A DNA stretch of 59,033 bases from Raillietiella orientalis. Taxonomy: Eukaryota. Each line of letters starts with the position of its first letter. The stretch's first letter is position 1. Below the pieces are notes generated by a model. The model saw nothing but the letters and a program-made list of their open reading frames with translations, was not told the origin of the DNA and ran no database searches. Shown here one piece after another: positions 9,700 to 47,990 of this stretch. The position numbers were made by a program, and so were the translations under genes. Location of the stretch: contig JAYWIR010000103.1 in NCBI GenBank assembly GCA_036172245.1, positions 124,001 through 183,033 of the forward strand. Direction: 5' to 3'.

Positions 9700-9713
9700 T
9701 ACTGCTGGGAAGA

Positions 9714-21235: not shown

Positions 21236-24200
21236 CGAGTGAGGATGTGTTTTTCTTCGCTCTCGTCTCCAGGCTTTCAATCGCTTCATCCTGGTGTCGC
21301 GCATTTTGACGACGATGTCGATCCAACCCGAAGCTACTGAAGTTGGAGGAACAGTATAGGGATCTGTAATCGCAAGACCGACGGCCGCCTCCACTTCGCC
21401 TTGCTCGCCAATGGCGATCAGTTTTGCTGACGTTGCTGCCGCGGCAGCCGTCAAAGGGGGAGCACTCGACGATTCAGAGTTGCGATCATACGTAGCTCAG
21501 GGCTATAGACCCGCTCTCCGATAAAAGGTAAGTTTCTTTCTGGGTTTGACGGGAATCAGTTCAACGATGAACTGACCCGTGTTAACGTGCGGGAGAAGGA
21601 CCTCCTCGCCATTATGCCTTTAAAGGATATGGGCTATTTCAAAGTGCGTTGCAAAGACGCTGCACTTGTGCAACGCTTGATGCGCACCCCGTTGTCGATC
21701 CGTGGCCAGAAGGTCTTCCCGGCCGCCATGGACGACTCATTCGTGGCGGAGATTTTCGACATCGAGTCGGAAATCTCGGATATTGATATTCGGAACGCGT
21801 TGGCGAAATTCGCCACGGTCCATGCGCTGTGGAGGGTGCGTAGCAACCTCAACGACTTCCCGTCCATACACAGCGGAGTCGCTGGAGTCCGGCTTAGAAT
21901 GCCGGACCGCCGTCTGCTGCCCACCAAACTACAGGTGAAAGACACGGTCGTTTACCTTTGGTTCGTGGGCAAAGTAAGAACGTGCGAGCAATGCGGGAAG
22001 GAGGGGCATTGTTTGGATAAATGCCCCTCCGGAAAATGCCGTTATTGCAAGCTTTCCGGGCACCAATTAGGAAATTGCCCCGATCTTTTGCGAAAAAAGG
22101 CAGCCGCGTAGCTTCGACGGACGAAAAAAAAGCGGAAAAAAATCAAAATTTCTCGAAAAACCCGGAAAACGCGCGGCAGAAATCCCGCAAAAACGCGAAG
22201 CGGAATGCCGCCCCAAAGAAGCGGGAGTCCTCGCACTCGAAGCCCCGCGCGCCCGATCTCGCGGCAGGGGAGCCCGAAAAGAAAGGGTGCGGGGAATCCG
22301 GGGCAATGGTAAGTCCCCCCAGGCGCAATACGGGACCCGCCGAAGCACGCACGACTCTATCGGAGTCCGAGCAACCGGCAGGGGCGTCAATGGACAACGG
22401 CGGTAAGGACACTCGCAGTACCGTCAGATCCATTCCTTCACCATCTTTAGTGGCGGAGAAGCCCAAAACAGGTAAGAAGGGTTGTGCCATGCCGACTTCG
22501 ATAGTCAACAAAATAAAATCCGCGCCGCGGTCAAACGCCGCGGAAGCGGAGAAATATTCCACATCGTCACAATCGGAGAGTAAGCTCTCGACTGAAGCGG
22601 ACGCGATTCCTACGAAGGGGTTTAAAGCCCCAAGGAAGGCAGCGCCGATGGCGAGCGTGTCGGAGTCATCGGAAATGCTCGCGTCCAAAGACGCGGGCGC
22701 CTCCAATGATGGCAATGGCGCATCAACGGTGGTAAAAGGGAGCGGAAAAATAAACAAAGCTCCAAAAAACTCACCACAACCTACATCCACGGCTCCAAGT
22801 GAAGGGAGGAAACTCCGTGAAGTTACGAAGACTTCCGCGAAGGTTCCACGTGGAACTGCGCGTAACAACGCGGACATCGCGTGTGCCGGGAAGGAATTCG
22901 TTACCAACAGCGACGCTATGGTTACGGGAAATGACGACAGGACTTCTGTCAAATTAGCATAGCCTGCCACTTCTTCGCGGAAGGCCGAAACTCGATCGAG
23001 CATCGGCCAAGCGGACCCCGAAACGGAGGCCGTCCCGATAGCCGAGACGAGGATAACTCGTTCCAAAGCGTGTGCGCGCCGATCTAAAGTAGGCAGCCAG
23101 CGAACGCTTCCAGCGAAACAACCCGAGGTCTCCACGAAACCCGACGGGGTCAAGCATGGCGTGGAGGCGTTACATGCATGTAGCACGACGAAGGAGGGTG
23201 GCGACCGCGCCCTCCAGCCGATCGTGCTGCTCGCCGTCCACTCGGAGGATAAAGCGAGCAAAAAGCCGCCGCCTTCCCAGCAGTAATGCGGGGAATCGCG
23301 TTTTCCCGTAGTATGTCCGTCGCGTGTGGAACGTGAACGGACTCCAGAACGACGAGAAGAGGCAGTTAGTAGCCAACGCCCTGCGCGCCTTCGACATCGT
23401 GCTCCTCCTGGAGATTCACGTAATCTCCGATGAGCAGGCAGCCGAAATCGAGAACCGCGCAGGCGGAACGCTACATGGCGGTGTGACGACGCCCACACGT
23501 GCGGCGTCGCGTTCCTCGTAAGAGGAAAAATGGCGAAAGCGGTGCGTGGTGTTCGTTTCGACGACGAAGGACGGTTAGGCCAACTTGTCATCAAATAATC
23601 GGAGTCCATCGATTTCGTCGTTAGAAACGTCTAGGCGCCGAGTGGCTCTCGCTACCTCGAAGAAAGAGTAGCTTTCTTTGGTGAGGTGCAGAGCCACTGG
23701 CTGAACAACTCCGGCCTCCAAGTGGCGCACCTCGTCACGGGGGACTTTAACGTCCGTCTGCTCTCCGACGATTCGAGCCGCCCCAGGGAGCGCGCGCTTC
23801 CCATCGAGATGTGCACGTCGGTGCCCGCCGTCAACTTCATGGTCAGCGAACCAGGAATGGAAAGATCGCTCGATCACGTTTTCCTCGACGAAAACCTCCA
23901 TTCACGTGTGAGTAGGAGAGGAAGATTGTTGACTGAGCTTTCTGACCAACACAGGTTGGAGTTTGAGATCTTTCCGCCAGGCAAGGGGCCTCCGTTGCAA
24001 AACAGGAGGATGCAGGCGGATCGGCTTAGCCATCCGGAGGCTGCGGAGCATCTACGTGAACACCTACGAGGCTTCGCCATTCAAGAACTCGCGGACTGGG
24101 ACAACCTCAAAAGATCTGTCCGCGAGTTCTGCTGCCAATTCCCCTTGCACCGGCTTCCACGCGGTTTCGGAGAGGGCGTGGCCAACAGTAGAGACTTTCT

Positions 24201-25688
24201 GCAGGCCCGCACGTTTTCGAGACGCGCGGATGTCGGGCGTCTCGCAGAGTACAAGGCGAGGGCCGAGCGCCAGGTCTGGCAGTCCGGAGCAGCATGCCTG
24301 TTGGACGACAAGGGCCAGGAATGTTCGGCCCCAGCCGAAGTACGCCGCATTGTGAGACGCTACTACTCCTCTCTGTACGCGGAATCCCAGACGGAGGATA
24401 TTCTTTCTGAGATACTCCTGTCTCAGGATGCTCGTGTTGTCGGCAAGGAGGAACGCGAACGTCTCAACGAGCCCTTCACGCCGGATGAATTCTCTTCCGT
24501 CATTGCTGGGCTGAAGAGACGAAAGGCGCTAGGAGGATTTCTTCGACCTCATTCGTCGGGGAGCGGGCGTGAGCGTGAACAGAGAGAAGAGCGTGGTCGT
24601 TCCTGTGGGTACGTCGTGGGAGGGGCAGTCCGACTGGATCCGCCTGGGGATCCCCACGGGCGGGTACTTTAAGTACCTTGGCGTTCCGTTGGGCGCTTTC
24701 GGCGCAGCCGAAGCGTGGGCGGACTGTCTTCAGAAAGCAGAGTTGGCCATCAGCTCGTTCTTTAACGGCAAGTTTACCTTGCAGGAACGGGCGACTATAT
24801 GGAACACCTTTGTGGCCCCCCTCCTCCGTCCCCTGTTTTTTGTTTTGGACCCCCCCTATGCGGCAAAACCGCGGGCTAAGCGCCTGCTCAGGAACGCTCT
24901 CTGGGGTCCGGCGAGATCCAGGATCCGCCTTAAAGATTTCGTTGCTCCGCGTCGGGATGCTGGTTTGGGCATCCTGACAATGGAGCGAATCGAACTGCAG
25001 GTGCAGTTCCGAGTGCTGGCACTGTGTGCTCAGCTTTGGACATCTCCCCTGTGTGTGCCTGCACGCATTCTCCAGCGGAGATGCGCCGGCAGCGGAGCAC
25101 TGCTCTGGCTTTTGCGGGGCACCCAATACAGGAAGCGAGGTTTTGGGCTTTCATTGCGGCAGTTGAGCTCACTTCTGGAAGCCCATTCGTGGATCTTCTG
25201 CCGCCCAATGAACTTCGAAGCTTGGCGGCAGGAGTTTGTGGAATCCTGGGCAACGTTCCAAGGAATGCTCCCTGAAGCTCTTTGCCCACTGCGCCATCTT
25301 CTTCCGCGATCTTTGGAAGAAGTACTGCAGGACGAGGTGATGTTTTCTATACATTGATCACCGGTTACCGCTGAGCAGCGGCCAACCTGTGATCAATGTC
25401 GTACCCTCCATGAAGTCATTTTTGTGTTTTCTATTGACACCCGCGTCCCCATTGGCACCGGAACATTTCAGGTTCTCCCCGTTTGAATCCCCGTGAGTAC
25501 GGAGCCTAACTAAGGACCCGTTACCATTCCCTCCAGTTTTTCTGTTTTCGTTTGTTCTCCGCTTATTCCTCCCATGTTGCTGGCGGTTTGTTTACCAGGC
25601 CTGCGTGCCGGTAATTTCTCTCTGTTTCCTGTCAATCTGTTGGTTGGGGAGATTGTTTCTGACCGGTTAATTGTGACCGGGTGAAAAA
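21236..25688 (+). mobile_element. Divergent non-LTR retrotransposon H, both ends present, degenerate, RT core deleted; sense insertion at the GDFN motif of G
   Basis: 5' end cgagtgaGGATGTGTTTTTC. ORF1 ~21315-23286 with CEQCGKEGHCLDKC and CRYCKLSGHQLGNC. TAATG at 23284-23288. EN motifs WNVNG and GDFN. Deletion near 24530. 3' end CCGGGTGAAAAA. Confidence 0.88.
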
Positions 25689-25997
25689 TTTCAATCTACG
25701 GACGGAAACACAAACCCACTGAAGGCCCTTCGTCGTATACACAAAAGGTGAGATAACCGCAGTTAAAGCATTCTAGGGTGCACCATGTCGGACTTGGATA
25801 TCTGACTGATAGGTAGACTCTGTGGTGTACTTGAGCATGTTTAGCATGCTATGCAGTTGCAGTACAATTTGAAGAGCTGGGGGTATATGTATGATGTGCT
25901 TCATGCATGTTGGTCTAGGGTGGCGGGAAGGGCTAATCACTCTGTGATAATACCTAATGTTCTATTTGTTTTTGCAGGTATTGTTGCCTGATTGGTG

Positions 25998-27250
25998 ATG
26001 GCAGCGGCAAGTGAAGACATGTCAGCAACTTTTGAGGAATACAGCTCCAGCTTGCCGGACCTCGATGGTGACATCGAGATAGGGCTTACAACTGGAACAG
26101 ACATAGCCCTCCCAGAAGACCGCCGGTTCCCTGTGTATCAGCCTACAAATTCCCGAGCCACGATTAAGAACATTCGTGCCTCGGCTAACGGATGGTTATA
26201 CAGTGCCAAGCACTTTAAGGATGCCCAGCTTCCGCTCATGTTTAATGGCATATACGCACTGCTGACATACGACTTAATCCGATTCCGCTCGGTGAATGGT
26301 AACCTGATTCCGGATGGTGACTGGAAACCGACCACCCAGCATTACCATATGACACACACACAGAGGACGGCTAGTCAGTCTTTGCTCAACCAACAAACTG
26401 CGACCAACCGCATTGTAGTGATGGTGGCTACCATGGTTTCTTGGTGGCTCACCAATCATAATACCGGGGTGAAGAAAGATAGTTCAAGAGGAGCAGGGTA
26501 TGCACTAAAAGTGTCGCGCTCTCTGTTTGCCCGCACGCCACTTCCCGAAGAAAAGGGGATGGACATCGCCCATACCCTCGGTCACTATTGAAGTACCCTG
26601 AGTATCATGGAGCTGGCCGGATTCACGCATAAAATTCCATCTGTATCGATAGAAATCCAAGGACCCCCTTTTAAACCTATATCCATTTCACAGAATGCGC
26701 TCCTTAGATTCTTGTCCCCTCCAGCTGCTAAGCACAGGCATGCTGTGGCGTACCAGGCTTTTAAACGGCTTGTAAATTGGGCACAGGCGGCAAATTGTCC
26801 GGAGATAGAAAACATGCTATTTCTGGGCGAGGCGTACGCCGAGATAATGCTTAATTTCAAGCATTATCATATTGGGGCAAAGCACATAACTGGACAAGCT
26901 AGTACAAACTTCAGCGATGCTGATGCAGACGCTACTCTCGGACGACTGGGCTCATTTATGCTGAACGTCTACCCAAAATCAACACTATGCCTCTCGCCCC
27001 ATATGTCGCAGCAGGCCGTGGAATCAAAAGAGAACCCCTCTCCTGAATGGGACGCATTCTGTGCAAAGGTCCCAAAGGAGCTGTCTTGAAAACCAATCGA
27101 GATGATATATCCAAACCTGGGGACAGACAAATTTCGGAAATCAGAACAAAACTCTATGAGGCAATTAGGACATTTGAACACAAAATGCCTGGTGTGGCAA
27201 GCGGGAGGCAGCATGAAGACATTGTTCCAGCAGCTGAGCCTATGCATTGA
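25998..27250 (+). pseudogene. Endogenous viral element: Qinviridae-like (negative-strand RNA virus) nucleocapsid/structural protein with one stop (26589-26591) and one frameshift (~27075)
   Basis: Motif series WWLTNHNTG, HTLGHY*ST, LRFLSPPAA, YHIGAKHITG, STLCLSPH. It matches my recollection of qinvirus segment-2 proteins (NHHTG, GHW.ST, LR...PAG, YH.GA.YLTG, TL..SP). No search was run. Confidence 0.72.
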
Positions 27251-27414
27251 GTGCTCACTGGATGATACTCAGACATATAATTTATGTGAGAAATTGACGA
27301 AGATGATAAGATTACAACTAAAGCTTCTTGTATGTTTTGTGTGTAATTATTTGTGTGTAATCTTAGGTAGGAGTAGTTGAAACAAAGGTTTTGGTTTACG
27401 ATGGCGTGGCGACT

Positions 27415-28926
27415 TTTCGCAGCGAAAGAGCGGGCTAAACGTCTGCTCAGAAACGCCCTCTGGGGACCGGGAAGATGCAGGATCCGCCTGAAAGATTTGG
27501 CGGCACCACGTCGGGATGCTGGTTTGGGCATCCTGACAATGGAGCGAATCAAACTGCAGGTGCGGTTCCGAGTGCTGGCACTGTGTGCTCAGCTATGGAC
27601 ATCCCCCGTGTGTGCCTGCACGCATTCTCCAGCGGAGATGCGCCGGCAGCGGAGGACTGCTCTGGCTTTTGCCGGGCACCCAATACAGGAAGCGAGGTTT
27701 TGGGCTTTCATTGAGGCAGTTGACCGCACTTCTGGAGGCCCATTCGTGGATCTCCTGCCGCCCAATGAACTTCGAAGCTTGGCGGCAGGAGTCTGTTGAA
27801 TGCTGGGCAGCATTCCAAGGAATGCGCCCTGAAGATCTTCACCCCCTGCGCCATCTTCTTCAGCGAACTTTGGAAGAAGAAATGCAGCACGAGGTGTAGT
27901 TTTCTACCCTGGCTGCCACGCCTCTCGCCGCAGCGCTGTCTGCCCTCAGGGCAAGAAACGACAGTTGCCAACCGGCGAGGTGAGAGGTTTGCTGCACGAT
28001 AGCGGGAGAAACGAAACTCCTTGGAGCCGGACGCCGCCACTCCTCGTTCTGATGCAAAGGGACTCCTCCGGTGGGCAGAACTTGGTGTCACCCCCGAAGA
28101 ACTTGTAGTCCCTCCACAGTGTACAGACAGTTCTCTGCTCCCCCTTGCTTCGAAACAAGCCGTGCTGCTTTTCGTTCACTGGGGTTTTCAGTGCAACGAG
28201 CGCTGGCATCGTGTCTCCGGGGGACTCGCAAATGCGAACTGCGTTCGGTGAGTGACGACGGAGTCGATCCCGCACCTACTTCTGGACTGCGGTGTCCTAC
28301 AAAGACCTTGGCGAAGGCTGGCAGCAGCACTATCGCATCCCGTGGACACCGCAAGAGACTTGCTGCGACGATTCTTCACGCCGAGCGGACTGTCTACAAG
28401 CGCAAGGATTGCAACCATCGGTTGCATACGCGCCATAGTTTCAGCCCGTCAGGCGCTGGTAATCAACGGGCAGCATCAACAGGTGGTCGGCAAGGCAGCC
28501 TCCTATATGGAAGCGGCCGCCAGATGGCCTCAATTGACCAAGGACATAAAAAACGATCTCGCCGGCATACAACGTCGGTTTACAGACGCTACCTAGCAGC
28601 GCACCCGGTGACCCTTTCCCCTCGCTCCCATCGGTTTTTTTTTTCTTTTTTTTCCCACTTCGGTCCTCTTAGGCTCCGGAACGTTCTAGGTGCTCTCCCT
28701 TGTAAATCTCCGTGAGTACCGAGCCTCACCAAAGACCCGTCACCCTTCCCTCCAGAGTTTGTGTGTTTGTATTGTTATCCCTTTACTCTCTCAATGTTGG
28801 CAGCGGTTAGTTCACCAAGCCTGTGTGCCGGTAACTTCTCTTTGTTCCTTATCGTTTCTTTGCTTGGGGACATCGTCCTTGACCGGTTTATTTAAAATAA
28901 ACGCCCCGGCGTGACCGGGTGATAAA
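27415..28926 (+). mobile_element. 5'-truncated H-family retrotransposon J, directly fused to the 3' end of the qin-like insert
   Basis: AAKERAKRLLRNALWG... is highly similar to H 24860-25340. ORF2 ends at 28596. 3' end AATAAACGCCCCGGCGTGACCGGGTGATAAA. Confidence 0.9.
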
Positions 28927-29343
28927 TTTCAACCTCCGCCTGCTGTCAGGTGATGCCCACGCACAGGAGCGGACGGCCAACGAATTGTGCGCTGCCATGC
29001 GCACGCGCAACTAGTTGGGTGATCTCCCGGGAATGGTCAACAGCATCGACCACGTTTTTCTGCATGCTGCCGTGTCCCCAAGGGTCCTAAACGGGAGAGT
29101 TGCGTCGACGCTGTCGGAGCATTCCCGGCTGATATTCGAGGATTGCCCGAGCGACAAAGGACCCCCTTCCAGGGCGTATGTCTGCCTGGGGACTGGACGC
29201 GACCCTCAGGTACGAAAGAACACCTTCGCCAATTCCTGAGAGGCGTCACCCTCCAGAATCTCGCTGACTGGGAGCTTTTTAAGGCCTCGGTCCGGGAGTT
29301 TTGCGAGGAGTTCCCCTTGCACCTCCGCCCCCCTGATTCGGGG

Positions 29344-30028
29344 TTTCCACCCGGGTATGACCGGGGCGTTTATTGAAAAAATAAAACTCTACAAGACGTG
29401 GTACGAGGCTCCACTAACGGCCTAACAACACCGGACCCGCCGGGACGCAGCCCGCCGTGACTCCCCTCGGCAGTGGAGGGGGATGTGGGCGAAAACAAAA
29501 AATAAAATAAAAACAAAGAAAAAACAAAAAGAGTTTGGAGGGGAAGGGATCACATTCCACTGGGAGGAGGGTCCAACCTTCGCAGGATTCCCTCGAGGTC
29601 CATCAGCATTGAACCCAGCTGGGGCCATCCTTTAGCTCTCCGCATGAAGCAGACCGCATAAGGGATGACATCCCTCTCGATAGCGTCCAATCCTTCGTCG
29701 CATGCATCGCTCCAGGCCGCCACGATGCCTCCGATGCAGCACAGTGCTGCCACGGCTGCGGCTGGCTGCAGGGCGTTACGCACGAAGAGATGACGGAAAA
29801 CGTCTCTGGGTTGGCTGTCCACCTGGAGCCCGAGGATCGTCCCGAACCGTTCCCATAGGGTTCGGAGGGCAGCACAGTCAACAAGTAGGTGGAGGAGCGA
29901 TTCCCGCTCCCCACACCTTGCACACTCAGGCCTTACACTTCCCGCGTCCAGTGGAAGCGGCGCGCGTTGCAGAGTAAACCCCAGTGCAACAGTAGCAGCG
30001 CCGACTCTTGCCACTTCAGGGGGAGAAG
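29344..30028 (-). mobile_element. 5'-truncated retrotransposon E (D/K-like 3' end) with a 12-bp TSD, antisense in G
   Basis: TSD CCTGATTCGGGG at 29332-29343 and 30029-30040. Finger CARCGERESLLHLLVDC. Terminal hairpin present. Confidence 0.93.
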
Positions 30029-30585
30029 CCTGATTCGGGGACGGGGTCCGTAACGAACGGGCATATTTGCATGCCCGCTATTACGGAAGGACCCACAATG
30101 TCCGTCGCCTGGCAGAGTACCGAGCCGGGGCGGAGCGCCAAGCCTGGCAATCCGCGTCGGCCAGCTTGCTGGACGACCAGGGCAGGGAGCACTCGGCCCC
30201 GGCCGCGAAGCGCAACCTCGTGCGGAGATTTTATTCCTCCCTTTACGCCAGAGCCTCCGCGGAGCAAGACGCCTCCCGGCGCATGGTTCTGGCTGGTGCC
30301 CCGGGAATAGGGGAGGCGGAGAAGAAAAGCCTCGACGAGCCTGTTACGACCGGCGTAATTCTCGCCGGGATTAAAAGGCTGAAAAGGCGGAAAGCACCAG
30401 GGGAGTACGGCCTGCCCGTGGAGTTTTTCCAATGCTTCGCGGCAGAGTTGGCACCACTGGTGCTTCAGTTGACAAGGCTGATCCGAGACGAAGGTGATGT
30501 TACCGCCTTGTTTCGGTCAGCCAGGGTGAGGCTCCTTCCCAAGGGAGGAAACCTCAGAGAGCTCAGCAACTTGCGTCCGATAAAT

Positions 30586-30870
30586 ATGGAAGCCACACAT
30601 AGTAGAAGAATCTGTAAGTCATACCAAGGATATGGATTTTGTGCATATAGTCACCACTGTTGATACACACATAACTACGGAGATGCAACTCTTGAAAGTA
30701 TTGCAGCAATGTTAGACTATATAATAGGCAATATGAGGGAAATAAGACACAATGTGTGTAACATATCTCGAAGATATAGTATATATGATTACCTGGATGC
30801 CAGGAGAGCAAGATCGATGAGTAAAGCCTCTAGAAGTTACCAACATCAAGACATTAAGAAAAAAAAATAA
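30586..30870 (+). pseudogene. Small (~94 aa) CCCH zinc-finger ORF with one internal stop, ending in ATTAAGAAAAAAAAA; putative retrocopied mononegavirus mRNA
   Basis: MEATHSRRICKSYQGYGFCAYSHHC*YTHNY gives C-x8-C-x5-C-x3-H. The frame stays open after the TGA at 30661-30663 to the TAA at 30868-30870. Confidence 0.6.
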
Positions 30871-30949
30871 AAAATTCCCGAGTTGCACTTAGCGTACCAA
30901 GTGATCTGGTTTCTGACGTCTGTACAGTCTACTCCCTAGAATTGAAATC

Positions 30950-32220
30950 CACAGATCCAGTATGCGCTGCTTCATCCCTGGTCCCCATCGGCACGTGCCA
31001 CAGGATAGCGGCGCTCCCTTTTACGTTTGAGGTGCTCTATCCCCCGGCAGCCCTCATCCGGTCCTCCTGTTCCCCTATTTTTTGGAAAACCTCACACGGT
31101 CAGACTGCCGAAAATGCTATGTATCGCAGAATCTTCTCCGAACCCCTCTCAACTCATTGCACTTCGTGTGCATCCTGTGTGGTATTAGTTTTGACCATTC
31201 CCATCTTCTCAAAACCCATTGCAAAGCGAAACACTCAGGTGCTGGCAAATATGCTTATTCAACTGGCAATTCTTCATGCAGAAAGATTTTCGCCCCTCTG
31301 TTCGACTGTCGCTCGCCTACTAATCCCAATGGCCACTCCTCTTCCCTTCACCCTCCAGAACACAGCCCCAAGATTGATTCCTCCATTCCTTCCTTCATGG
31401 AAAATGAAGAGGCGTTCCAACGTCTCTTTAAGGATTTTCAGGAAAAACTTGCACCTAAGCCCAGCCCTATAGATGACCAAAGTCTTCATAAATCCACTCC
31501 CTCATACTCGGACATCTTCGCGTGAACCAAAAGTTTTCCTCAAGGAAACTCCTCAAACTTCTTGCCGCACTGGATGCAGAACTACTACTCTGCAGCGATG
31601 ATCACAGCTGAGCATATCTCTCCCCCCCAGCTCGCTGCTACTCCTTCCCCGATCGGATGACAAAGTTCGAGGCGTCTCCATTCCCTCTTCAACGAAGTTT
31701 GATGATTCTTACTTGGTTACCTCCATCACAGCTCACGACGCCCTTTCGCCTCTCCTAAACAATCGTGTATACAACTCAACTCCCCGCTCCTCTTGGATTA
31801 CAGAATGCTCTGAGTCCAAGAATTTCACCCTTCCTGAGAAAAACGGTCCCCCAAGATTCCAAATCAAAGTCTCAACCTACCTTTAACATTCCCCTATAGC
31901 CACTTCTTCCTGACTTTCTCCTTTTTATGACCTGCGACGCCTGACCTCCTTTCCTCTTTCAAGAGCGAAACAACGCGTGGGTGCAGCCATTCAATTGCTT
32001 GATAACCTTTTCAACTCCACCCGACAGCTGGTGGGCTCCACCCACCTGACTTATCTAATTCCACCATCAAGTCAGGTTATACCAGCTACAACATCTGGAA
32101 GCCCTCATTGCTTTCCGAATAATTCAAGTCCTTCACGATAAGGACTTTCGCCAGAAACCGCGTTGCCTATGAATTTCCCACGGGATCGGTTACTCAGCAA
32201 TCTTGGTAATAAGTATTACC
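30950..32220 (+). pseudogene. Decayed C/T-rich coding sequence with a C2H2-like finger; origin unknown, possibly RNA virus
   Basis: CILCGISFDHSHLLKTHCKAKH in ORF 31082-31525. Further open stretches follow (RSDDKVRGVSIPSSTKFDDSYLVTSITAHDALSPLLNNRVY). Strong pyrimidine strand skew unlike the flanks. Confidence 0.4.
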
Positions 32221-32221
32221 C

Positions 32222-32940
32222 AGATTGCATCTCGAACGGAGCAGAGGAACCCCTGAACAAGCTGAACAATACTGCCAAAAGGAAGACGAAAATCCATGGA
32301 CTTACGGAACACTACAACTACAATCCAAGAAATCAATACATAAACAGGTAAACTTTCTAATATTTCAATATAAAAATCTTGCATTTTCAGATGCAACAAT
32401 AGATATTAGATGGCAGGAGCGAAAAATGGATATGGAGAGAAAAACCCGAGATATACGACAAACAGGCTATTTGTAACTGATAGCATTAGATTTATTAAAT
32501 ACTTCCAAACAGACTCCATGGAATTAAAACAACTTCAAATATGGCAAAAAAACCTTTTAGACATATCAAAAGACCCCAGCGACAGAGGTAACCACTGGTA
32601 CAGCAACTGCCAAGGAAACTCCGGGAAAACCACTATCGCAAAGCACATTTATCTCAACTACGAAGCACTATATCTCAACTACGACGCACTATATCTCAAC
32701 AACTGCAAAAAAACAGACGCATCATATATGTACGCAGGAAAAAGATAACAAGCATCGACCTTACAAAAGATGTCCAGGAACTCATAAACTACGGACTGAT
32801 TGAATCCATCAAAAATCATCTATGCTCCACCAAATACCAAGGACACTTTGAAATGTTCTCCCGTCCCCATGTAATTATTTTTGCAAATACCGACCCCAAC
32901 TATGAAAACACGTCATCTGATAGATGGATTGTACTTATGA
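32222..32940 (+). pseudogene. rep: Endogenous CRESS-DNA-virus Rep fragment (HUH motif III plus SF3 helicase) with a 43-nt intron at 32348-32390
   Basis: HLERSRGTPEQAEQYCQKE (motif III). Walker A GNSGKTT. Walker B region IDL, then INYGLIESIKN...TKYQG. Motif C HVIIFAN. Arg-finger region SDRW. Contains stops and frameshifts. Confidence 0.88.
32649..32700 (+). repeat. 21-bp tandem duplication inside the Rep relic (YLNYEAL-YLNYDAL-YLN)
   Basis: atctcaactacgaagcactat atctcaactacgacgcactat atctcaac. Confidence 0.9.
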
Positions 32941-32959
32941 CATCTGCCAAACCATCGTC

Positions 32960-34200
32960 CACCAACAAACCACGAGGAGTTCGTAGCAGTCCTTGCACGC
33001 ACACAATGACAAGTTCAGGAAACGAGCAAGCATCCAGTTTATGGAAGACTATCGACCGAAACTCCAAGCGGATACCTTCGAGGAAATGGACGTCTCCATC
33101 GGACAACTGAAGAGCTAAACTCTGACAAATGAGCCGGTGACCACTAGTGGACTTGGATTGCTTGGTAACCTCGCATGGGAAGAGGTTAAACTCGTCAGGA
33201 TATGTGATTCAGCATTGAGTAAGAACGCCTTATATCGTGTGAAACTGTAGATGCAACTGTAGATGCAACTCTTAAAGTCACAGCTGACACCTGTATATAC
33301 CAGCTTCATCTTAAGTGACCGACAATCTAATAGATTTGCCAATTATAACATCGATCAGTCAATCGTTTCAGCTCCTATCAACTTGAAACCTGACGACGGT
33401 AATTAATGGTACTGGCCAATTCACACGTGACAATAGGCGCTACACCGTTTGTTTCGACGTCCTGTGTGCTGTATGAGTTGATAGACCCTTCACGTGAATG
33501 TGTTACAGCGACACCCGAAAAGAGAGCGCGCCCTGAGTGTGCCGTGGAAGTTGTTGCTAAGAAACCCGATTCATTTGTGGTTACCTTCAACAACATCAGA
33601 AAGACTGTGGTAGCTTTGACAGATGCGACCATGGCCATTGACCATAGTAATATTTTGAAGTGAACCCGCTTCCTAACGCCGTTTTCATCAACCATTTGTT
33701 GATGAATCCAGATGAGATAATGCCAGATATGATTACAGATCGAGAGCTGCAATTGTTACGATCAACCGTCAATTCTCTCTACGGTAAGTTTCCCCATCTA
33801 ACTGAACTAATTACTCTCGAAAAGAAAACTCATTCCAACTAGTTAAATCCTTTACTGATTTACAGTTGGTTACGACTGTAGAAAACATTCCCTACATTTG
33901 TAATCTATTCAGTATGACTGAAGATTTCTATTCCGCTGGTCCAGTCACTGATCAAGTAGGAGCGGTTGGACTTTTGAGCTAAGCCGGCGAATGCTCAGAG
34001 TTTAACAACAGTTACAGTCGCCTTGCAGCTTGCATCACATTTCGTTCAGTGACTTCCCAAACCGATTTGGTTATCTATGGAGGACAATGGCTAATGCCAT
34101 CCTCTCGCGTCATTAAGGAGGAACAGGTTTATGTTTTCAACCAGAGGGAAGATTGCATAATCCGCGGTAAGTCCACAGCAAACCTAGGCGGTTGCAATCT
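32960..34200 (+). pseudogene. Decayed coding sequence of unknown, possibly viral capsid, origin
   Basis: Long nearly open + frames: HNDKFRKRASIQFMEDYRPKLQ...GLGLLGNLAWEEVKLVR...; NAVFINHLLMNPDEIMPD...; NLFSMTEDFYSAGPVTDQVGAVG...YGGQWLMP. No recognised motif. Confidence 0.35.
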
Positions 34201-34499
34201 GTTTTTCTCCTGCACGTGGGTCGAGCTGCGGCGAAATAGGTGCTAGGTGTATCCGGAAAAAGGAAACTCCAGGTGCGGCAAACGCAATGATATTGAAACG
34301 CCTACAAATCTTGCAAAAAAGGAAAGAATACAGAAAGATTCTAACGAGGCATACATTAATATACCGTTAATGAAGAAACTCTAAAAAAACTGCCATAGGG
34401 ATGCACATCAAGCGTAATTCTGACGCTCTGACCGTAAATCTGATCGAGTACCTGGATTCTGGATCCCGGCCACAAAACCTTAAGTGGACCTTCCCCGGA

Positions 34500-34870
34500 T
34501 AGTTTGTCTTCGTTAGCTTTCTTGCAGCTTTCTCAAGCATCTCTCACTGCCTTGGTCGGGCTTCGCAGTATATCTGTGAGCTCCGCCGCTTTTTTGAAGG
34601 CGTTTCTCTCGCTTTGCTGCGCAACTTCCCTTCTGTTGGCACAGCGAGCGGAAGTGTTTTCCAGTCACTGCATTTAATCCGCTGATTTTGTTCTTTTCCG
34701 ATGTGCTCGTTTTTGACAACCCCAAGACGAAAAAGACTCTGGATAAAACTGCTTCGGTCCCCGAGGTGGGCAACTCTTTTGTCTATGGGTGAGGACGTAC
34801 ACTCCAGTCGCTGCCGCTGCGACAGCACACGCATGGACCGACAGCCCTGAGCTATAGGTGTATATAGCAA
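34500..34870 (-). pseudogene. Highly decayed retrotransposon ORF1 relic
   Basis: IAQGCR (compare YVAQGYRP in H), SFIQSLFRLGV, RIKC, and AFKKAAEL...KAVR (compare AFERAAEELAA...KAVRRP in A). Confidence 0.45.
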
Positions 34871-34939
34871 ATGACTACAAGCCTGTACTCAGGTATACGA
34901 TTTCACCTCACGACAGAACATCTTTGGCAGCCAATTCGG

Positions 34940-35470
34940 GAGTTTCAAAGAATCAGTTGAGCTCCCTCATACTCATAAGCAGGTCGGCCACATAAGCGAA
35001 ATGCTGTTCTGTTGTCTATGCCCACCCTATCGGCTAAACTCGAAAACTTTTTCGAGCTCATCCATCGAGGTACAGGCGTTAATAGGGGCAAGAGTGTGGT
35101 CGTCCCAGTGGGTGCGTCGTAAGAGCGGCAGAACGACTGGATCTGTCGAAGTATCCCCACAGGCCGCTACTTCAATTACTCTAGATTTTGGGGGCGAGAT
35201 TTCTGTGTAGCGGAAGTGTGATCACTGTCTTCAAAAGGCTGAAATGTCTCCCGGTCCGTTCCTCGAAAGCAAGTTCTTGCCAGCGCGGGTCACCATCTGC
35301 AACAATTTTGCTGCTGCTCTCCTACGCCACTTGTTTTTTCTTCGCCCGCCCCCATACTCGGTGAAGATCCAAGTGCAGCGTCAATTAGGGAAAGCCCTGT
35401 GGGGCGCTGCAAAGTCCCGGATCCGCCTCAAGGACTTCCTGATGCCGCGTCCGGTGGCATCCTTATTGTA
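34940..35470 (+). pseudogene. Decayed H-like RT C-terminal fragment
   Basis: ENFFELIHRGTG..NRGKSVVVPVG...DWI and KALWGAAKSRIRLKDF. Confidence 0.8.
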
Positions 35471-38400
35471 GACATTGTACACAGAACCTCAGAATACTGA
35501 AGGATTCTTAAATCGCTTTTTACTGCGGGATTCAGCGTCGCCTGGTTCCGTAATCGCAACATTACTGTGTGATCTCCATAATCGCGTGATCCATGCCGAA
35601 GAAAACACAATATGCATTTTGTTATTCCCTTCCTGAAAACAGTAACGCGATGATCCCAACAGAGATGTCGTAAGAAAGTGTATGCTGACATGCTGCAGTT
35701 CCCTTCCCTTCGCCCGCAAATTACAAAAACACCTTCAATCATTTTTTCCTTTATTTTCCCTACATTCGTTACTGCAGTAACCTTGCTAATTGATAGCGGG
35801 CAGAATATTATCGGCTTTGTTGTTTGCAGCTGTTTTCATTAAACGTGCTTAACATCACCTCATGAAAGGAACAAGACTCGCATCTCTACAAACGTTTTTT
35901 CATCACTCCGCAAGCGAAGAGAAACTAATTTGTTTCGCTTTAATGTGAGGATACTGGTTTTTGTGATAGCCAGAATGAGAAAGAACTATGGATGTCGACA
36001 CTAGAGGAAGCTTTTCCCCTTAAGACCACAGATATTAAAAGATCCACCCATCGAAGAACCGTCTTTTGCAAAGACGCTATAGAGCAAGGTAGATGCGAAA
36101 GGTAGCCAAAGCAGAAGTTTGTAACCCGAAAACCTACTCATAAAAACCTTGCTTACGACATAATTTTGACAGGTTACACGTGACGATTCGAAGTAGGAAA
36201 GTTCCAGATTGAAAAGGAAGCTTTCGAGACTGTAGGTCTTGAGTGAGGACAGGGCGTGAAGTCGGCTACAAAACTGTAGTTACTTCTCAGCTCCTATCAC
36301 GATCGAGGGACGCAAGCTCCTCCAATGTATAATAGAGCTAGCGTCCCTCGCCCAGTGACAGCACCTTACCAAAATGGTGGAGATGGGCAAGAGTACTATT
36401 CATAGCTACAGTATTTGACACAGTGCAGGTAGGTCAAAGCAAACTTGTTCCCTGGTTTCGAGGATCTTTTCAACGGTTTGACGTATATCTAATGAAGTTT
36501 ACCCAAAAATTTGAGATGGGAACTGAATTTGTCTGTAGATCTGTGGTTTGTGTGCACGCTAAAAGCCAAAGTTTTCACCAGATGTGGCTAAACTTCATGA
36601 TTAAGTACCTCAATATTATTTCATGGTTACAATAACAAGCGCCACACAAACCTTCCAAAAAACGCAAGGAAAAGCCAAACGCACAAAGCTCCAAAAGACA
36701 ACGAATACTAATGCCAAGCATCTGCAAAACTATCTTTAGAACTCAGCAAGGGAGAATGAGACTGCTTTGTTTTGATACAAGTACCGCGGAGAAACATCTC
36801 ACCAAGGTTGCATAATTGTACAATCTACACATCAAAAATAACTCCTCTTCAGTTAAGAGAGCAAAGACGTGACAAAAAAAATGGAATTCCTAATGACTCT
36901 GGAAGTATCCGAAACCACTAGAAATGAACTCGTGAAAAAGCTGGCAATCCACAGCTTGCAAAGGATTACTTTCTCGAAATAGAACGTAAACCTATAAGCC
37001 ACTGTAGCACTACTGTGCGCTCCGTGTCGTGCACAGAAAATGAACGATATTAAGTTCTATATTGCGATCTAAGAAATGGCCAAGACTAGACTATTTAGGT
37101 TCGAGGTCCGAAAACCTGATCGAATACTTTGCATTCCGTTCATGAAGATCTACGCGATCTTTCTTTGGCAACGCGTCACTCAAACCTGAACGAAAGTTGC
37201 AAAGCAGTAAATTTTCCAAAATGCATGACTGCATCAGGAATCTTTCCTAGTTATCCATAAAGAGCTTTAAATAGTTCCAACGAACACAAACGATTTCAAA
37301 GAGGCGAAGATCGCTTAAGGATCTTAAATAATTGGTCACTTGAACAATATCACTTCTCAGTGGACAAAATTCTGGGCACAGCATTTTTCGTGACGGAAAC
37401 ATTTTCAAAACAAACTTCAACACTACTACATCTCCTTTCAGACACCTTTGACTTTCAGTCTTTCTTACCCAAACTCCACATACTTCCTGTGGAACCTATC
37501 ATTTCAGTCAAGTTTTTATCCTATTTCACCGAAACTATATGAACTGTATGAAGCTCCATTTCTTAAGGATCGATTTACCTATCAGATACTGGACGCAGAA
37601 CATGTGCATGAACAAAGTCTAATATAAAACAAAGCACACACTATACATCCCTACTTGTGCTCAATATACAATAATTTGAATACCTTACTTTTTATCAATT
37701 TCCGAGTGAACAATATGACATATTGAAGCTGAAGGTTAACAGATTTCAGTAAACCAAACATAGTGCTTAACTACATTCCAGTCATTTTGGAAGGCATGAA
37801 CGAGTATTCTCTATTCATCTGTGGTTCGTGATTTCAGAAATACTGTTGACAATGTAGCGAAAATCTATGCAATGTGCGAGTAGACATTACATAATAACAG
37901 TACATTTGTTCTTTATTATCATCGTCTGTGCGTGCATGCGGTTGAGGATCTTGACTCGATATGAATACACTCCAACATGAGTCGGAGGCGATAGACGCTC
38001 TGAATTTCTAAATACAATTGTTCGATAAGACGTTTAGAATGGATAAATGTAAAATCTGAGTTCTGGGAAAACTTAATTGATACAATTAAATGTGCATGGA
38101 TCCAAAACTATTGATCTCTTTTATAAAGCAGTTACAGGTACATAGTATGCAAACTTGCTTGAATAGTTTGTGGTTCTTTCACATAAAAGAACGAAATGAT
38201 TTCGTCCTGCGGAAAGACCGGGCTCCTCAGGATGAGTTCGTGCCCACATGTAGAACAGGACCAATTGCTTCAGTGTCTCAACCTCCAGACACAATTCTTA
38301 CCGTTTTTTCCAGTTCCGTTAATCGGAAGACAAAGTCTAGGAATGTAAAACTCATGACCTGCAGAAATTGAGAAATCTGATACACGATGCAATTATATTG

Positions 38401-41400: not shown

Positions 41401-41993
41401 TGGTCCTCTTCACCATCATACCAATACAACTCCTACTCAACAACACTTGATAAGGACAAAATTATTAGATGTTTAAAAGTGTTTTGCTAAAACGAGTCAT
41501 TTGATGTATAAAAGTGATGGAATTCAGTGCACCAAAACTATTGTTAGAAGAACAGTTCAAATTGGATATTCTTACGTAAGAATAATTCTTCACTACGGTA
41601 TATATTAAACTTCACCACATTTCTGGGAAACCATGCTATAGCTTAAACCAACTCTTGACCTGATCATGTCTGTGATCAAATGAACACATCATACACGAAT
41701 AATACATGAATAGCTGGGTATTCACATATTGATCATGCATTAAAATCAAAATATCTCCTTTCTACCTGATGAGTCCACAATATAGAAAGACTACAACTCA
41801 TCCCTGAACAAAAATTTATTTTCTCACTAGTAGTGAAGGGGCATTACAAATTATGAGCACATAGTTGCAAGAGAATTTTTTTCGTAGAAAGGAGATATTT
41901 TGGGGCACAAACAAATTAAAAGCACAAGAGAACTTGAAAAAATGCCAAAATTCTTACCTTTAAAAGATATTCTGCATATGTATTCTAATGCTT

Positions 41994-47500: not shown

Positions 47501-47713
47501 AATTCTATAACATGCACAGTAATGAAGAATTAGCAGAAATGCCAAAAAGAAATTTAAAAATATAAACATTTCTCATGGAAGAGTGATTTCGGGACAAAAA
47601 CTCTTTACTCAAATCATGATTCCATACATTCTGAACCCTGCAAACCCTAGAACATCTCCATTGGTAGCAAAACAATCGTACGGTGTCCATTTGACTGAAC
47701 TTATCCGAGTAAT

Positions 47714-47990
47714 TCATTAACACCCGGATGTGCCGAATCATTTATTTAAAAAAATAAAAACACAATTATATTTTCTTGTGGTGAACCCAAGAAGTCACCA
47801 TATTACAACAGCTTGCTGGCTGCAGGTGCAAAGACCTGCGAGATCCATCCAGCGCGGGGGGTGGGAATAAAGTAAACAAAAAGAAAGAAAAGGTGAAACG
47901 TGAGCAGGGGAGAAATAGCTAGGAGTGGAGAGAATGGAAAAGGGATCACACTGCACGCTGGGCGGTCCTCTAGAGGGGACGGTGGGCGAT
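47714..47990 (-). mobile_element. Isolated decayed 3' UTR of the same retrotransposon group
   Basis: The minus strand reads GTGATCCCTTTTCC, a pyrimidine tract, stem-loops, then AATAAATGATTCGGCACATCCGGGTG. Confidence 0.7.

What the first reader, a model, noticed from the sequence alone, without database searches (positions are those of the whole stretch)
25696..34200. Co-oriented archive of unrelated virus fragments inside the self-targeting LINE array
Seen: up to five non-LINE inserts within 8.5 kb, all sense on +. At least two come from very different virus types (a negative-strand RNA-like N and an ssDNA Rep), and 30586-34200 is an abutting chain with no host spacer. Known: endogenous viral elements cluster with retroelements in arthropod piRNA clusters and can yield antiviral small RNAs. 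Inference: LINEs that home to each other and switch templates would funnel foreign RNA into fixed loci, a possible heritable memory of infection. Function is unproven, and the inserts are decayed.
Basis: inference. Interest (0 to 1): 0.84.

Follow-up and report, generated by a model that had tools for sequence, protein, structure and literature searches.

The report
Two virus fossils beside nested LINEs
Two dead copies of unrelated virus genes (an RNA-virus nucleocapsid and a small-DNA-virus replication gene) lie 5 kb apart in a retrotransposon-rich region, and one carries marks of having been pasted in by a LINE; this is a clean example of a known process, not a shown immune archive.

Summary
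Two of the "up to five" inserts are viral.

- **Nucleocapsid:** 25701-~27415 (+) is a near-complete copy of a qinvirus small segment. Its nucleocapsid ORF (25998-27089) has one internal stop. There are 248 sequence relatives (best E 4e-47). The fold model (pLDDT 90) matches named qinvirus nucleocapsids (E 1e-20 to 1e-11).
- **Rep:** 32219-32936 (+) is a CRESS-DNA-virus Rep pseudogene. It lies in three frames, and the N-terminal third of the protein, which carries HUH motifs I and II, was not detected.
- **Other pieces:** none has a detectable relative.
- **Setting of the "chain":** 30586-34200 is the start of a roughly 18-kb non-repetitive, lower-GC block, not a chain inside the LINE array.

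New result: the qinvirus copy is fused, in the same sense, to a 5'-truncated LINE. The 3225-bp unit is flanked by a 13-nt target-site duplication (11 of 13 identical). It sits at a site in an older LINE where a full-length LINE had also inserted. This supports LINE reverse transcriptase switching template onto viral RNA. Nothing ties Rep to a LINE.

The small-RNA "memory" reading could not be tested: no genome is held and no sequencing runs were listed. Verdict: new members of a known kind, of moderate interest.

The parts
20703..21237 (+). 5' part of an old LINE ('C-full'), ORF2 residues about 7-184. It ends in the endonuclease GDFN-coding site; the first copy of the target, ACTACAACC, is at 21229-21237.
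   Evidence: tblastn with the 1215-aa LINE ORF2; alignment of the site; sequence
21238..25687 (+). LINE A, with its 5' region and ORF1-like part present (21474-22081). ORF2 pieces are at 23324-25258, with internal deletions of about aa 443-706 and 953-1211. The 3' UTR ends in the conserved ACCGGGTGAAAA.
25688..25700 (+). Upstream copy of the 13-nt target-site duplication (ATTTCAATCTACG), homologous to the LINE GDFN site.
   Evidence: 11 of 13 identical to 28926-28938; 5 of 200000 random 13-mer pairs reach that
25701..27415 (+). Qinvirus small-segment-derived DNA in mRNA sense, about 1715 bp. No relative elsewhere in the window.
   Evidence: unique; size within the 1.6-1.9 kb given for qinvirid S segments (PMC10721934); relatives lie on 1.4-2.3 kb contigs
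25998..27089 (+). Nucleocapsid (N) pseudogene of 363 codons. One internal TGA at 26589-26591 and no frameshift.
27416..28925 (+). LINE B, 5'-truncated at about ORF2 residue 817 (start +/- 4 nt), with a complete 3' end (ACCGGGTGATAA at 28914-28925). 27419-27906 is 90.2% identical to LINE A 24860-25349.
28926..28938 (+). Downstream copy of the 13-nt target-site duplication (ATTTCAACCTCCG). It is also the resumption of LINE C-full at the GDFN site.
28926..29341 (+). LINE C-full, middle part (ORF2 residues about 182-333).
29342..30031 (-). LINE D, an inverted 3' part of a LINE inserted into C-full. It is flanked by a perfect 7-nt duplication GATTCGG (29335-29341 and 30032-30038).
30032..30581 (+). 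LINE C-full, next part (ORF2 residues about 321-505). It breaks off abruptly inside the reverse-transcriptase domain.
30582..32218 (.). Unidentified non-LINE DNA. It holds an A-rich tract at 30858-30876, a C-rich stretch at 31000-32199 (GC skew -0.26 to -0.41), and an ORF at 31031-31525 with a C2H2-zinc-finger-like pattern.
   Evidence: weak leads only; no Pfam hit
32219..32936 (+). CRESS-DNA-virus Rep pseudogene. Profile positions 75-130 lie in one frame (32219-32374), 141-215 in a second (32497-32739) and 210-284 in a third (32724-32936). A 21-bp tandem duplication is at 32650-32691. Positions 1-74 (HUH motifs I and II) were not detected.
32937..35005 (.). Unidentified non-LINE DNA downstream of Rep. 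No capsid-like match, and no significant origin hairpin in 33215-33335, the only stretch folded.
35006..35450 (+). LINE F, a small divergent ORF2 piece (residues about 694-845). It is not the continuation of C-full; its only nucleotide match is 66% to LINE A.
35451..48735 (.). Non-repetitive lower-GC block (GC 0.33-0.47). It includes a 584-codon open frame at 41997-43748 (-) with no detectable family.

Best explanation
The region holds two genuine, unrelated, dead endogenous viral elements.

(1) Qinvirus copy. A near-complete copy of a qinvirus small (nucleocapsid) segment was reverse-transcribed and inserted by a LINE. The LINE's reverse transcriptase began on LINE RNA at a nicked target and copied the 3' 1.5 kb. 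It then switched template onto viral plus-sense RNA and copied about 1.7 kb of it. The 3.2-kb chimera was sealed into the target with a 13-nt duplication. The target is an A/T-rich spot (the GDFN-coding site) in an older LINE, next to the 3' end of a full-length LINE that had used the same spot. LINEs here therefore pile into each other, and this one carried viral RNA along.

(2) Rep copy. A CRESS-DNA-virus Rep fragment lies 4.8 kb further on, at the border of a non-repetitive lower-GC block. It is frameshifted, and the N-terminal third of the protein, which carries HUH motifs I and II, was not detected. It carries no LINE junction marks. It most likely entered as DNA by an unrelated event.

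Shown: the identity of both genes, their decay, the nested LINE anatomy and the duplications. Inferred: the template switch itself, the order of the insertions, and how Rep integrated.
For: N identity:
- phmmer against 1.84 billion representatives gave 248 hits at E<=1e-3 and 33 at E<=1e-30. The best was 4.1e-47 at 36% identity over residues 15-345.
- AlphaFold2 on the 59-row alignment gave pLDDT 90.4 and pTM 0.85.
- In Foldseek against BFVD the first 7 rows have E 1.7e-20 to 9.7e-12 and TMq 0.69-0.79. Four are named qinvirus or qin-like; the other three are Beihai sesarmid crab virus 4, Xinzhou nematode virus 3 and an unnamed entry. Three of the 7 are annotated nucleocapsid or nucleoprotein.
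- The best PDB rows are all pneumovirus or paramyxovirus N, but weak (E 0.07-0.1).
- Relatives sit alone on 1.4-2.3 kb contigs: 2 of 2 IMG/VR loci and 15 of 18 JGI loci.
- The insert is about 1715 bp, against 1.6-1.9 kb for qinvirid S segments.

N decay:
- One TGA stop.
- 34 of 47 columns conserved at >=80% are kept, against a median of 91% in homologues.

LINE capture:
- The LINE 3' motif ends at 25687 and at 28925.
- The next 13 nt on each side are 11 of 13 identical. Random 13-mer pairs reach that 5 times in 200000.
- Those 13 nt align to the internal GDFN site of 5 other LINE copies.
- The older LINE resumes exactly there, and its 5' part ends at the same site at 21237.
- A perfect 7-nt duplication flanks the neighbouring LINE D, so duplications are a habit of this family.
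- LINE B starts at about residue 817 directly after the viral part, in the same strand.

Rep:
- A profile of 39 IMG/VR Rep ORFs hits three collinear frames at E 5.6e-7, 1.8e-13 and 3e-22, and nothing else in the window below E 3.
- Motif III (YCxK), Walker A (GKT) and the FAN...DRW stretch are visible in the alignment.
- Pfam Viral_Rep scores E 0.008 on the window piece.
- Viral_Rep is found in 7 of 8 of the IMG/VR ORFs checked.
Against: - The 13-nt repeat could instead mean two independent insertions at the same preferred site, or a short 3' transduction shared by the A/B subfamily. Only these 2 of the 6 LINE 3' ends in the window abut that site.
- LINE A and LINE B are 90% identical in ORF2 but only 72-75% in the 3' UTR. 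A simple history does not explain this.
- There is no poly(A) at the virus-LINE joint, and terminal complementarity of the viral part is not above chance (11 of 15; 376 of 2000 shuffles reach it). Whether mRNA or antigenome was copied is therefore open.
- The chimera may have formed elsewhere and been copied here.
The label 'qinvirus' rests on fold matches at 17-27% identity.
- The IMG/VR Rep set was picked by an 8-residue motif taken from the window. The strongest of the three Rep scores is inflated; the other two do not include that motif.
Confidence: 0.7

Rival explanations
1. One reading: the locus works as a piRNA-cluster-like archive. LINE homing plus template switching deposits viral RNA in one orientation. 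Read-through transcripts are then processed into antisense small RNAs that restrain the cognate viruses.
For: - Two EVEs from different viral realms lie within 5.1 kb in TE-dense DNA.
- One LINE-virus chimera carries a target duplication.
- LINEs are nested: 5 of 6 LINE 3' ends abut other LINE sequence.
- 6 of 8 independent LINE elements between 11.4 and 35.5 kb are on +.
- EVEs in TE-rich piRNA clusters are described for Aedes and ticks (PMC5497376 and PMC6580184, seen only as search listing and abstract starts).
Against: - No small-RNA, transcript or population data could be examined.
- Only 2 viral pieces are verified, and Rep has no LINE joint.
- An orientation count of 6 of 8 is not unusual.
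- N and Rep being on the same strand is a 1-in-2 event.
- Both genes have drifted, as expected without selection, although small-RNA function does not need an ORF.
- The host is unknown, so a PIWI pathway is assumed, not shown.
Confidence: 0.1
2. The viral cDNA was not made by this LINE. Viral DNA made by another reverse transcriptase, or captured at a double-strand break, landed by chance between two older LINE copies in gene-poor DNA where insertions are tolerated. The short repeat reflects LINE site preference.
For: - The GDFN site was used at least twice, so a site preference exists.
- A and B differ in 3'-UTR identity.
- There are 43 nt (25701-25743) and about 70 nt (27347-27415) of unexplained sequence beyond the only inverted-repeat pair near the ends of the insert.
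Against: - The viral part abuts the truncation point of LINE B within a few nt and shares its strand.
- The unit bounded by the 13-nt repeats ends in a complete LINE 3' end, which is the TPRT signature.
- RVT_1 (reverse transcriptase) matches came only from LINE ORFs. No other reverse-transcriptase family was hit among the ORFs scanned: 38 of >=200 aa across the window outside 23.6-43.7 kb, 36 selected ORFs in 23.6-49.7 kb, and 80 of the 89 of >=55 aa in 33.1-49.7 kb.
Confidence: 0.15
3. The Rep fragment and its unidentified neighbours (30.6-35 kb, or the whole 18-kb lower-GC block) belong to one larger integrated DNA element, such as a big DNA virus or a transposon that carries a Rep-like gene. 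They are then not separate captures.
For: - The block is compositionally distinct from the LINEs and is unique in the window.
- The atlas gave C2H2 zinc-finger clusters for ORF 31031-31525, some from Nucleocytoviricota (leads only, recognition 1763, below the 2300 mark).
Against: - 0 of 80 ORFs in 33.1-49 kb have a Pfam family.
- The single IMG/VR hit (E 8e-4 among candidates only) rests on one shared 8-mer in a protein without zinc fingers.
- No terminal repeats were found.
- The lower GC may simply be the host's own composition.
Confidence: 0.08
4. Artefact: viral contigs were wrongly joined to LINE repeats during assembly, or come from contamination.
For: Repeat-rich regions are prone to misassembly. 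No reads could be laid on the window.
Against: - Both genes are broken in ways typical of neutral decay: a stop and lost invariant residues in N, and three frames plus a 21-bp duplication in Rep.
- The joints carry a target duplication that aligns to LINE-internal sequence.
Confidence: 0.03

Closest known systems
Endogenous qinvirus-like elements and other non-retroviral RNA-virus EVEs of invertebrates
   Same: A nucleocapsid gene of a negative-strand RNA virus fixed in host DNA as a pseudogene. Qinvirus-clade EVEs are listed for Machilis (PMC6955108, passages read). Qinvirid genomes have an S segment of 1.6-1.9 kb encoding N (PMC10721934, whole text read).
   Different: Here nearly the whole S segment is present, about 1715 bp with roughly 300-nt flanks on each side of the ORF. 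It is fused to a LINE. PMC6955108 states that no retroposons were found near the basal-hexapod EVEs. The host here is unknown.
LINE-mediated integration of RNA-virus sequences, and L1 'chimeric retrogenes' made by template switching (bornavirus-like N elements with L1 hallmarks; U6-L1 chimeras).
   Same: A foreign RNA copy lies on the 5' side and a 5'-truncated LINE with an intact 3' end on the 3' side, in the same sense. The whole unit is flanked by a short target-site duplication.
   Different: This LINE has no poly(A) tail; it ends in a conserved hairpin-like motif. The target lies inside another LINE at a reused site. The cargo is a segment of a bisegmented virus.
Endogenous CRESS-DNA-virus (circovirus- or nanovirus-like) Rep genes in eukaryotic genomes (recalled; PMC11327096 seen only in a search listing)
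   Same: A Rep with motif III and an SF3 helicase (Walker A, motif C, Arg finger region), degraded by frameshifts.
   Different: The part of Rep carrying HUH motifs I and II was not detected. No capsid gene or origin hairpin lies nearby. The nearest IMG/VR Reps are only 34-46% identical over 49-81 residues in the top rows.
EVE-bearing piRNA clusters of Aedes mosquitoes and ticks (PMC5497376 and PMC6580184, search listing and abstract starts only)
   Same: EVEs from unrelated viruses lie close together in nested-retrotransposon DNA.
   Different: In those papers, as I recall them, the partners are mostly LTR elements and small RNAs were mapped. Here the partner is a non-LTR element and no small-RNA evidence exists.

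Membership tests
Qinviridae nucleocapsid (N) gene / S segment | Full-length sequence similarity to the N family | tested here: met
   248 hits at E<=1e-3, best 4.1e-47, alignments spanning about residues 15-357. The family profile hits both halves of the ORF at 2.9e-53 and 2.8e-48 and nothing else in the window below E 1. The hits themselves are unnamed.
Qinviridae nucleocapsid (N) gene / S segment | Fold like named qinvirus nucleocapsids | tested here: met
   Model pLDDT 90.4. The first 7 BFVD rows have E 1.7e-20 to 9.7e-12 and TMq 0.69-0.79; four are named qinvirus or qin-like and three are annotated nucleocapsid or nucleoprotein. A yue-like row scores 8e-5, and rhabdovirus and nyamivirus N score E>0.01.
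Qinviridae nucleocapsid (N) gene / S segment | Unit of S-segment size carrying N alone | tested here: met
   About 1715 bp with a single long ORF, against 1.6-1.9 kb. Relatives lie on 1.4-2.3 kb contigs.
Qinviridae nucleocapsid (N) gene / S segment | Conserved complementary segment termini | tested here: inconclusive
   One relative (L126) has perfect 13-nt complementary ends. The window's best is 11 of 15, reached by 376 of 2000 shuffles.
Qinviridae nucleocapsid (N) gene / S segment | Intact coding capacity (a live gene) | tested here: not met
   Internal TGA at 26589-26591. 13 of 47 conserved columns are changed, including a Lys that is invariant in 58 of 58 homologues.
CRESS-DNA-virus Rep (HUH endonuclease + SF3 helicase) | HUH endonuclease motifs I and II | tested here: not met
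   Profile positions 1-74 find no match in any frame at E<=10.
CRESS-DNA-virus Rep (HUH endonuclease + SF3 helicase) | Motif III (YxxK) | tested here: met
   Profile positions 75-130 at E 5.6e-7, with YCQK aligned to YCsK. Pfam Viral_Rep E 0.008, 16.9 bits, below the 26-bit cut-off.
CRESS-DNA-virus Rep (HUH endonuclease + SF3 helicase) | SF3 helicase Walker A, Walker B and motif C | tested here: met
   Profile positions 141-284 at E 1.8e-13 and 3e-22; GNSGKT, IDLTKD and IIFAN...DRW are aligned. Pfam RNA_helicase is not detected on the window pieces.
CRESS-DNA-virus Rep (HUH endonuclease + SF3 helicase) | Neighbouring capsid gene and origin stem-loop of a circular genome | tested here: not met
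   674 ORFs from the 124 IMG/VR loci give no hit outside Rep better than E 0.006. DNA fold of 33215-33335 has z -0.30.
LINE (TPRT) chimeric retrocopy | Target-site duplication flanking the whole unit | tested here: met
   13 nt, 11 of 13 identical, at 25688-25700 and 28926-28938; chance 5 in 200000. The alternative of same-site reuse is not excluded.
LINE (TPRT) chimeric retrocopy | 5'-truncated LINE with a complete 3' end on the 3' side, cargo on the 5' side, same sense | tested here: met
   LINE B covers residues about 817-1211 plus the 3' motif at 28914-28925, with the N ORF upstream on +.
piRNA cluster / EVE archive | Abundant strand-biased 24-30-nt small RNAs from the locus | not testable with these tools
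   No sequencing run was listed for 25696-34200 and no genome is held.
piRNA cluster / EVE archive | Dense nested TE fragments with an orientation bias | tested here: inconclusive
   Nesting is clear. 6 of 8 independent LINE elements in 11.4-35.5 kb are on +, which is not a significant bias.
piRNA cluster / EVE archive | EVEs enriched in such loci genome-wide | not testable with these tools
   No genome is held.

The most novel reading that the evidence does not exclude
A LINE family whose endonuclease repeatedly cuts an A/T-rich site in its own coding sequence builds co-oriented stacks. Because its reverse transcriptase switches templates, it seeds these stacks with copies of whatever viral RNA is abundant in the germline. 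The stacks are transcribed and act as a retroelement-written, heritable record that feeds small-RNA defence, including against DNA viruses through their transcripts.
Probability: 0.07. Interest if true: 0.85.

Novelty: new member of a known kind. Interest (0 to 1): 0.42.

Why it matters
How RNA viruses without reverse transcriptase enter host genomes is usually inferred from loose association with retroelements. Here the joints are readable. A near-whole qinvirus segment is fused to a truncated LINE inside a target-site duplication, at a site that LINEs reuse.

That gives a concrete, countable signature: virus plus 5'-truncated LINE plus duplication at the GDFN site. With it, one can ask genome-wide whether this LINE family is the route of entry for EVEs in this host, and whether such loci make small RNAs.

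It also adds a datable fossil for Qinviridae. According to a 2024 paper (PMC11108086, passages read), confirmed hosts of this family are so far only two trypanosomatids.

Tried and rejected
N ORF, searches that found nothing:
- Word-indexed homologue search: none at E<=0.01.
- PDB sequence search with the single ORF and with the family profile: nothing.
- Pfam on the N ORF and on 30 homologues: nothing relevant.
- Atlas on the first half of the N ORF: low recognition (1408), unrelated DUF leads. Rejected.

Rep, searches that found nothing:
- PDB phmmer with single fragments: only chance rows.
- The search for related loci and the word search with the 172-aa fragment: nothing.
- Rep was secured only after fetching IMG/VR genomes by a degenerate motif.

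Other tests:
- Terminal panhandle of the viral insert: not above chance. My first hand count of 12 of 15 was wrong; it is 11 of 15.
- Origin hairpin and 'iterons' at 33240-33263: no significant fold. The 13-nt exact match to 30681-30693 is within chance for a 5.6-kb region by my own rough estimate, about 0.2 expected.
- Capsid search with all ORFs of the Rep-bearing IMG/VR contigs: nothing.
- Unidentified ORFs sent to IMG/VR: one hit seeded by a single shared 8-mer. Rejected after reading the target ORF.
- Rfam on the whole window: 0 matches at gathering score.
- LINE F as the continuation of C-full across the Rep block: rejected. Its only nucleotide match is 66% to LINE A, whereas part E is 81-84% identical to copies that cover the same residues.

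Resources not available:
- Sequencing runs: none was listed, and no RNA holder was listed. This is no evidence either way.
- Whole genome: not held.
- Cluster names: the query could not be made.
- Earlier notes of this scan: nothing relevant.

Full report
**Setting.** The window is eukaryotic. No whole genome is held for it and no earlier notes exist.
- It consists of GC-rich (about 0.60) LINE sequence at 1-30581 and about 48736-59033. Between these lies a lower-GC block (0.33-0.50).
- The LINE has an N-terminal AP-endonuclease, a reverse transcriptase and a C-terminal zinc-binding domain. A complete 1215-codon ORF2 lies at 6133-9777 (-).
- It has no poly(A) tail. It ends in a conserved AATAAACGCCCCGGCG..ACCGGGTGA.AA motif. 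The short form of the motif occurs 6 times, against 1.05 expected.

**Observation check.** I mapped LINE pieces with ORF2 as the tblastn query and looked for everything else with self-blastn and tblastx.
- Inside the LINE-rich part, the stretches that blastn calls unique (14352-16185, 18592-20764, 21236-23266, 27907-28925) are divergent LINE ORF1, ORF2 or UTR by tblastx.
- Only 25701-27418 and 30582-35005 have no kin at all in the window.
- There are therefore two non-LINE islands, not five demonstrable inserts. The second island is simply the beginning of the roughly 18-kb non-LINE block. That block is interrupted by one small divergent LINE piece at 35006-35450.

**The 'N-like' insert is real and is qinvirus-like.**
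- The frame 25998-27089 is open for 363 codons except for one TGA at 26589.
- Pfam, the word-indexed protein search, PDB sequences and the atlas gave nothing.
- The exhaustive phmmer search found 248 relatives (33 at E<=1e-30; best 4.1e-47, 36% identity), mostly 360-450 residues long and aligned end to end.
- None of the 30 relatives checked has a Pfam family, and the family profile finds no solved structure by sequence.
- An AlphaFold2 model from the 59-row alignment is confident (pLDDT 90.4, pTM 0.85).
- In Foldseek against BFVD the first 7 rows have E 1.7e-20 to 9.7e-12 and TMq 0.69-0.79. They are Wenzhou, Shahe and Sanxia qinvirus-like viruses, a Frankliniella qin-like virus, Beihai sesarmid crab virus 4, Xinzhou nematode virus 3 and one unnamed entry. 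Three of the 7 are annotated as nucleocapsid or nucleoprotein. A yue-like virus follows at 8e-5, and rhabdovirus, nyamivirus and paramyxovirus N only at E>0.01.
- Against the PDB the top rows are all pneumovirus or paramyxovirus N, but weak (E 0.07-0.1). This fits the ICTV statement that qinvirid N resembles mononegaviral N (PMC10721934, whole text).
- Relatives lie alone on short contigs of 1.4-2.3 kb: 2 of 2 IMG/VR loci and 15 of 18 JGI loci, the other three lying on 4.5-5.4 kb contigs. One relative (L126) has perfect 13-nt complementary ends.
- Qinvirid S segments are 1.6-1.9 kb. The Anurida qinvirus small segment is 1729 nt (PMC6955108, passages). The window's non-LINE piece is about 1715 bp.
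The more exact label is Qinviridae-like.
- It is a fossil. Besides the stop, it keeps 34 of 47 columns conserved at >=80%, where homologues keep a median of 91%. It has lost a Lys found in 58 of 58 homologues.

**How the N insert got there.** The junctions can be read.
- LINE A ends with ACCGGGTGAAAA at 25676-25687, and LINE B ends with ACCGGGTGATAA at 28914-28925.
- The 13 nt after each end (25688-25700 and 28926-28938) are 11 of 13 identical. Random 13-mer pairs from the window reach that 5 times in 200000.
- These 13 nt are not LINE tail. They align to the internal site that encodes the endonuclease GDFN motif in five other LINE copies.
- From 28926 on, the sequence continues as that older LINE, which I call C-full (ORF2 residues 182-333).
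- The 5' part of C-full (residues 7-184) lies at 20703-21237 and stops within the same site.
- The order is therefore: C-full 5' part | LINE A (21238-25687, with an ORF1-like region) | target copy | viral piece | LINE B from about residue 817 to its 3' end | target copy | rest of C-full.
- This is what two successive target-primed insertions at one spot would leave: LINE A, and a 3225-bp chimera of viral cDNA plus 5'-truncated LINE B. Each would duplicate a few bases of the target.
- A perfect 7-nt duplication around the inverted LINE D, a little further on (29335-29341 and 30032-38), shows that this family makes such duplications.
- The arrangement (cargo at the 5' side, truncated LINE with a full 3' end at the 3' side, same sense, one duplication around both) is that of chimeric retrocopies made when a LINE reverse transcriptase leaves its own RNA for another template (recalled from the L1 literature; not read here).

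**Caveats on the capture model.**
- Same-site reuse by two LINEs, or a shared 13-nt transduction, could mimic the duplication.
- A and B are 90.2% identical over 490 bp of ORF2 but 72-75% in the 3' UTR, which I cannot explain.
- There is no poly(A) at the joint, and terminal complementarity is not above chance. The template (mRNA, antigenome or a partial copy) is therefore unknown.
- The chimera might be a secondary copy of one formed elsewhere.

**Rep.**
- Pfam gave only a sub-threshold Viral_Rep hit (E 0.008) on 32213-32476. Single-fragment searches failed.
- I fetched 124 IMG/VR stretches carrying a degenerate form of an 8-residue motif of the window fragment. Most lie on 2-3 kb contigs, and 7 of 8 ORFs checked carry Pfam Viral_Rep.
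- In tblastn with 58 of their ORFs, the top rows pair a helicase hit with a second, collinear hit in another frame (best summed E 5.5e-21).
- A profile of the 39 ORFs of 250-400 aa matches three frames in order: positions 75-130 at 32219-32374 (E 5.6e-7), 141-215 at 32497-32739 (1.8e-13) and 210-284 at 32724-32936 (3e-22). Nothing else in the window scores below E 3.
- The alignments show motif III, Walker A, Walker B and motif C. The last score is biased by how the set was chosen; the first two are not.
- Positions 1-74 (HUH motifs I and II) are not found.
- There is a 21-bp tandem duplication inside the helicase.
- No capsid-like sequence and no origin-like hairpin in 33215-33335, the only stretch folded, was found nearby.
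- Nothing links Rep to a LINE. The nearest LINE edges are 1.6 kb and 2.1 kb away. C-full breaks off at 30581 inside its RT domain with no duplication or 3' end to pair with. LINE F is not its continuation.

**The remaining pieces.**
- 30582-32218 contains an A-rich tract, a strongly C-rich stretch and an ORF with a C2H2-like pattern. The leads are weak: E 0.04 to PDB zinc fingers and atlas zinc-finger clusters at low recognition.
- 32937-35005 has short ORFs on both strands.
- None has a Pfam family or an IMG/VR relative. The one hit was rejected.
- Calling these pieces viral, sense on +, or 'abutting without host spacer' is not supported. They may be host DNA.

**Interpretation.**
- Best reading (0.7): two independent fossils, one of them a documented LINE-virus chimera at a LINE-in-LINE hotspot.
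- The immune-archive reading (about 0.1) remains possible but untested. No run was listed and enrichment cannot be computed without the genome.
- Two unrelated EVEs within 5 kb does suggest that such TE-dense DNA collects or tolerates insertions. That is what is reported for Aedes and ticks (listings only).

**Novelty.**
- Qinvirus-clade EVEs are in print, and so are LINE-made EVEs and CRESS Rep EVEs (recalled).
- My two searches on qinvirus EVEs listed no paper whose title or abstract start describes a qinvirus-LINE chimera. PMC6955108 reports no retroposons near its EVEs. I did not read those papers in full or open their supplements.
- I rate this as new members of a known kind, with an unusually legible integration scar.

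Noticed in passing
window 20703-30581: One old LINE (C-full) carries three nested insertions: full-length LINE A, the virus-LINE B chimera, and inverted LINE D. Two of them are at the same spot, the GDFN-coding site of its endonuclease domain, which suggests a preferred A/T-rich target inside the LINE's own GC-rich sequence.
   Followed up: partly
window 28926-30036 and 12756-13872 (inverted): A 1.1-kb composite (LINE residues about 182-333 joined to the inverted 3' end of another LINE) occurs twice at 75.5% identity. Either the same LINE-in-LINE junction arose twice or a composite block was duplicated.
   Followed up: no
window 24860-25349 vs 27419-27906; 25445-25672 vs 28663-28892: LINE A and LINE B are 90% identical in ORF2 but 75% in the 3' UTR, while both are about 70% identical to all other copies. 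This could reflect gene conversion or a mosaic origin.
   Followed up: no
window 41997-43748 (-): A 584-codon open frame, Lys/Ser/Asn-rich, in the lower-GC block. No Pfam family and no PDB relative. It may be a host exon or gene.
   Followed up: partly
window 25749-25978, 32348-32392, 33786-33866: Short GT...(T)nCAG intervals that look like small introns. One lies in the leader of the viral insert, one in the Rep linker and one downstream of Rep. This was read by eye only; it could be chance. If the one in Rep is real, it would argue for DNA-level (unspliced) origin.
   Followed up: no
window 33240-33263 (also 30681-30700, 32389-32404): A tandem 12-mer (..ACTGTAGATGCA x2) lies 130 nt after the Rep frame ends, with partial copies upstream. 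It looks like iterons, but there is no significant hairpin beside it.
   Followed up: partly
L125, L126 and other loci: Relatives of the N gene share a terminal word (..AACCACGA[AG]..). L126 has perfect 13-nt complementary ends. The start of the window insert (ACGGAAACAC..) resembles it loosely, and the LINE target copy just before it (..CAATCT) resembles the first bases, hinting at microhomology at the joint. Not tested statistically.
   Followed up: partly
L131, L135, L143 (4.5-5.4 kb metagenome contigs): Three N-family matches lie on contigs longer than an S segment. These could be EVEs in other hosts or a different genome layout.
   Followed up: no
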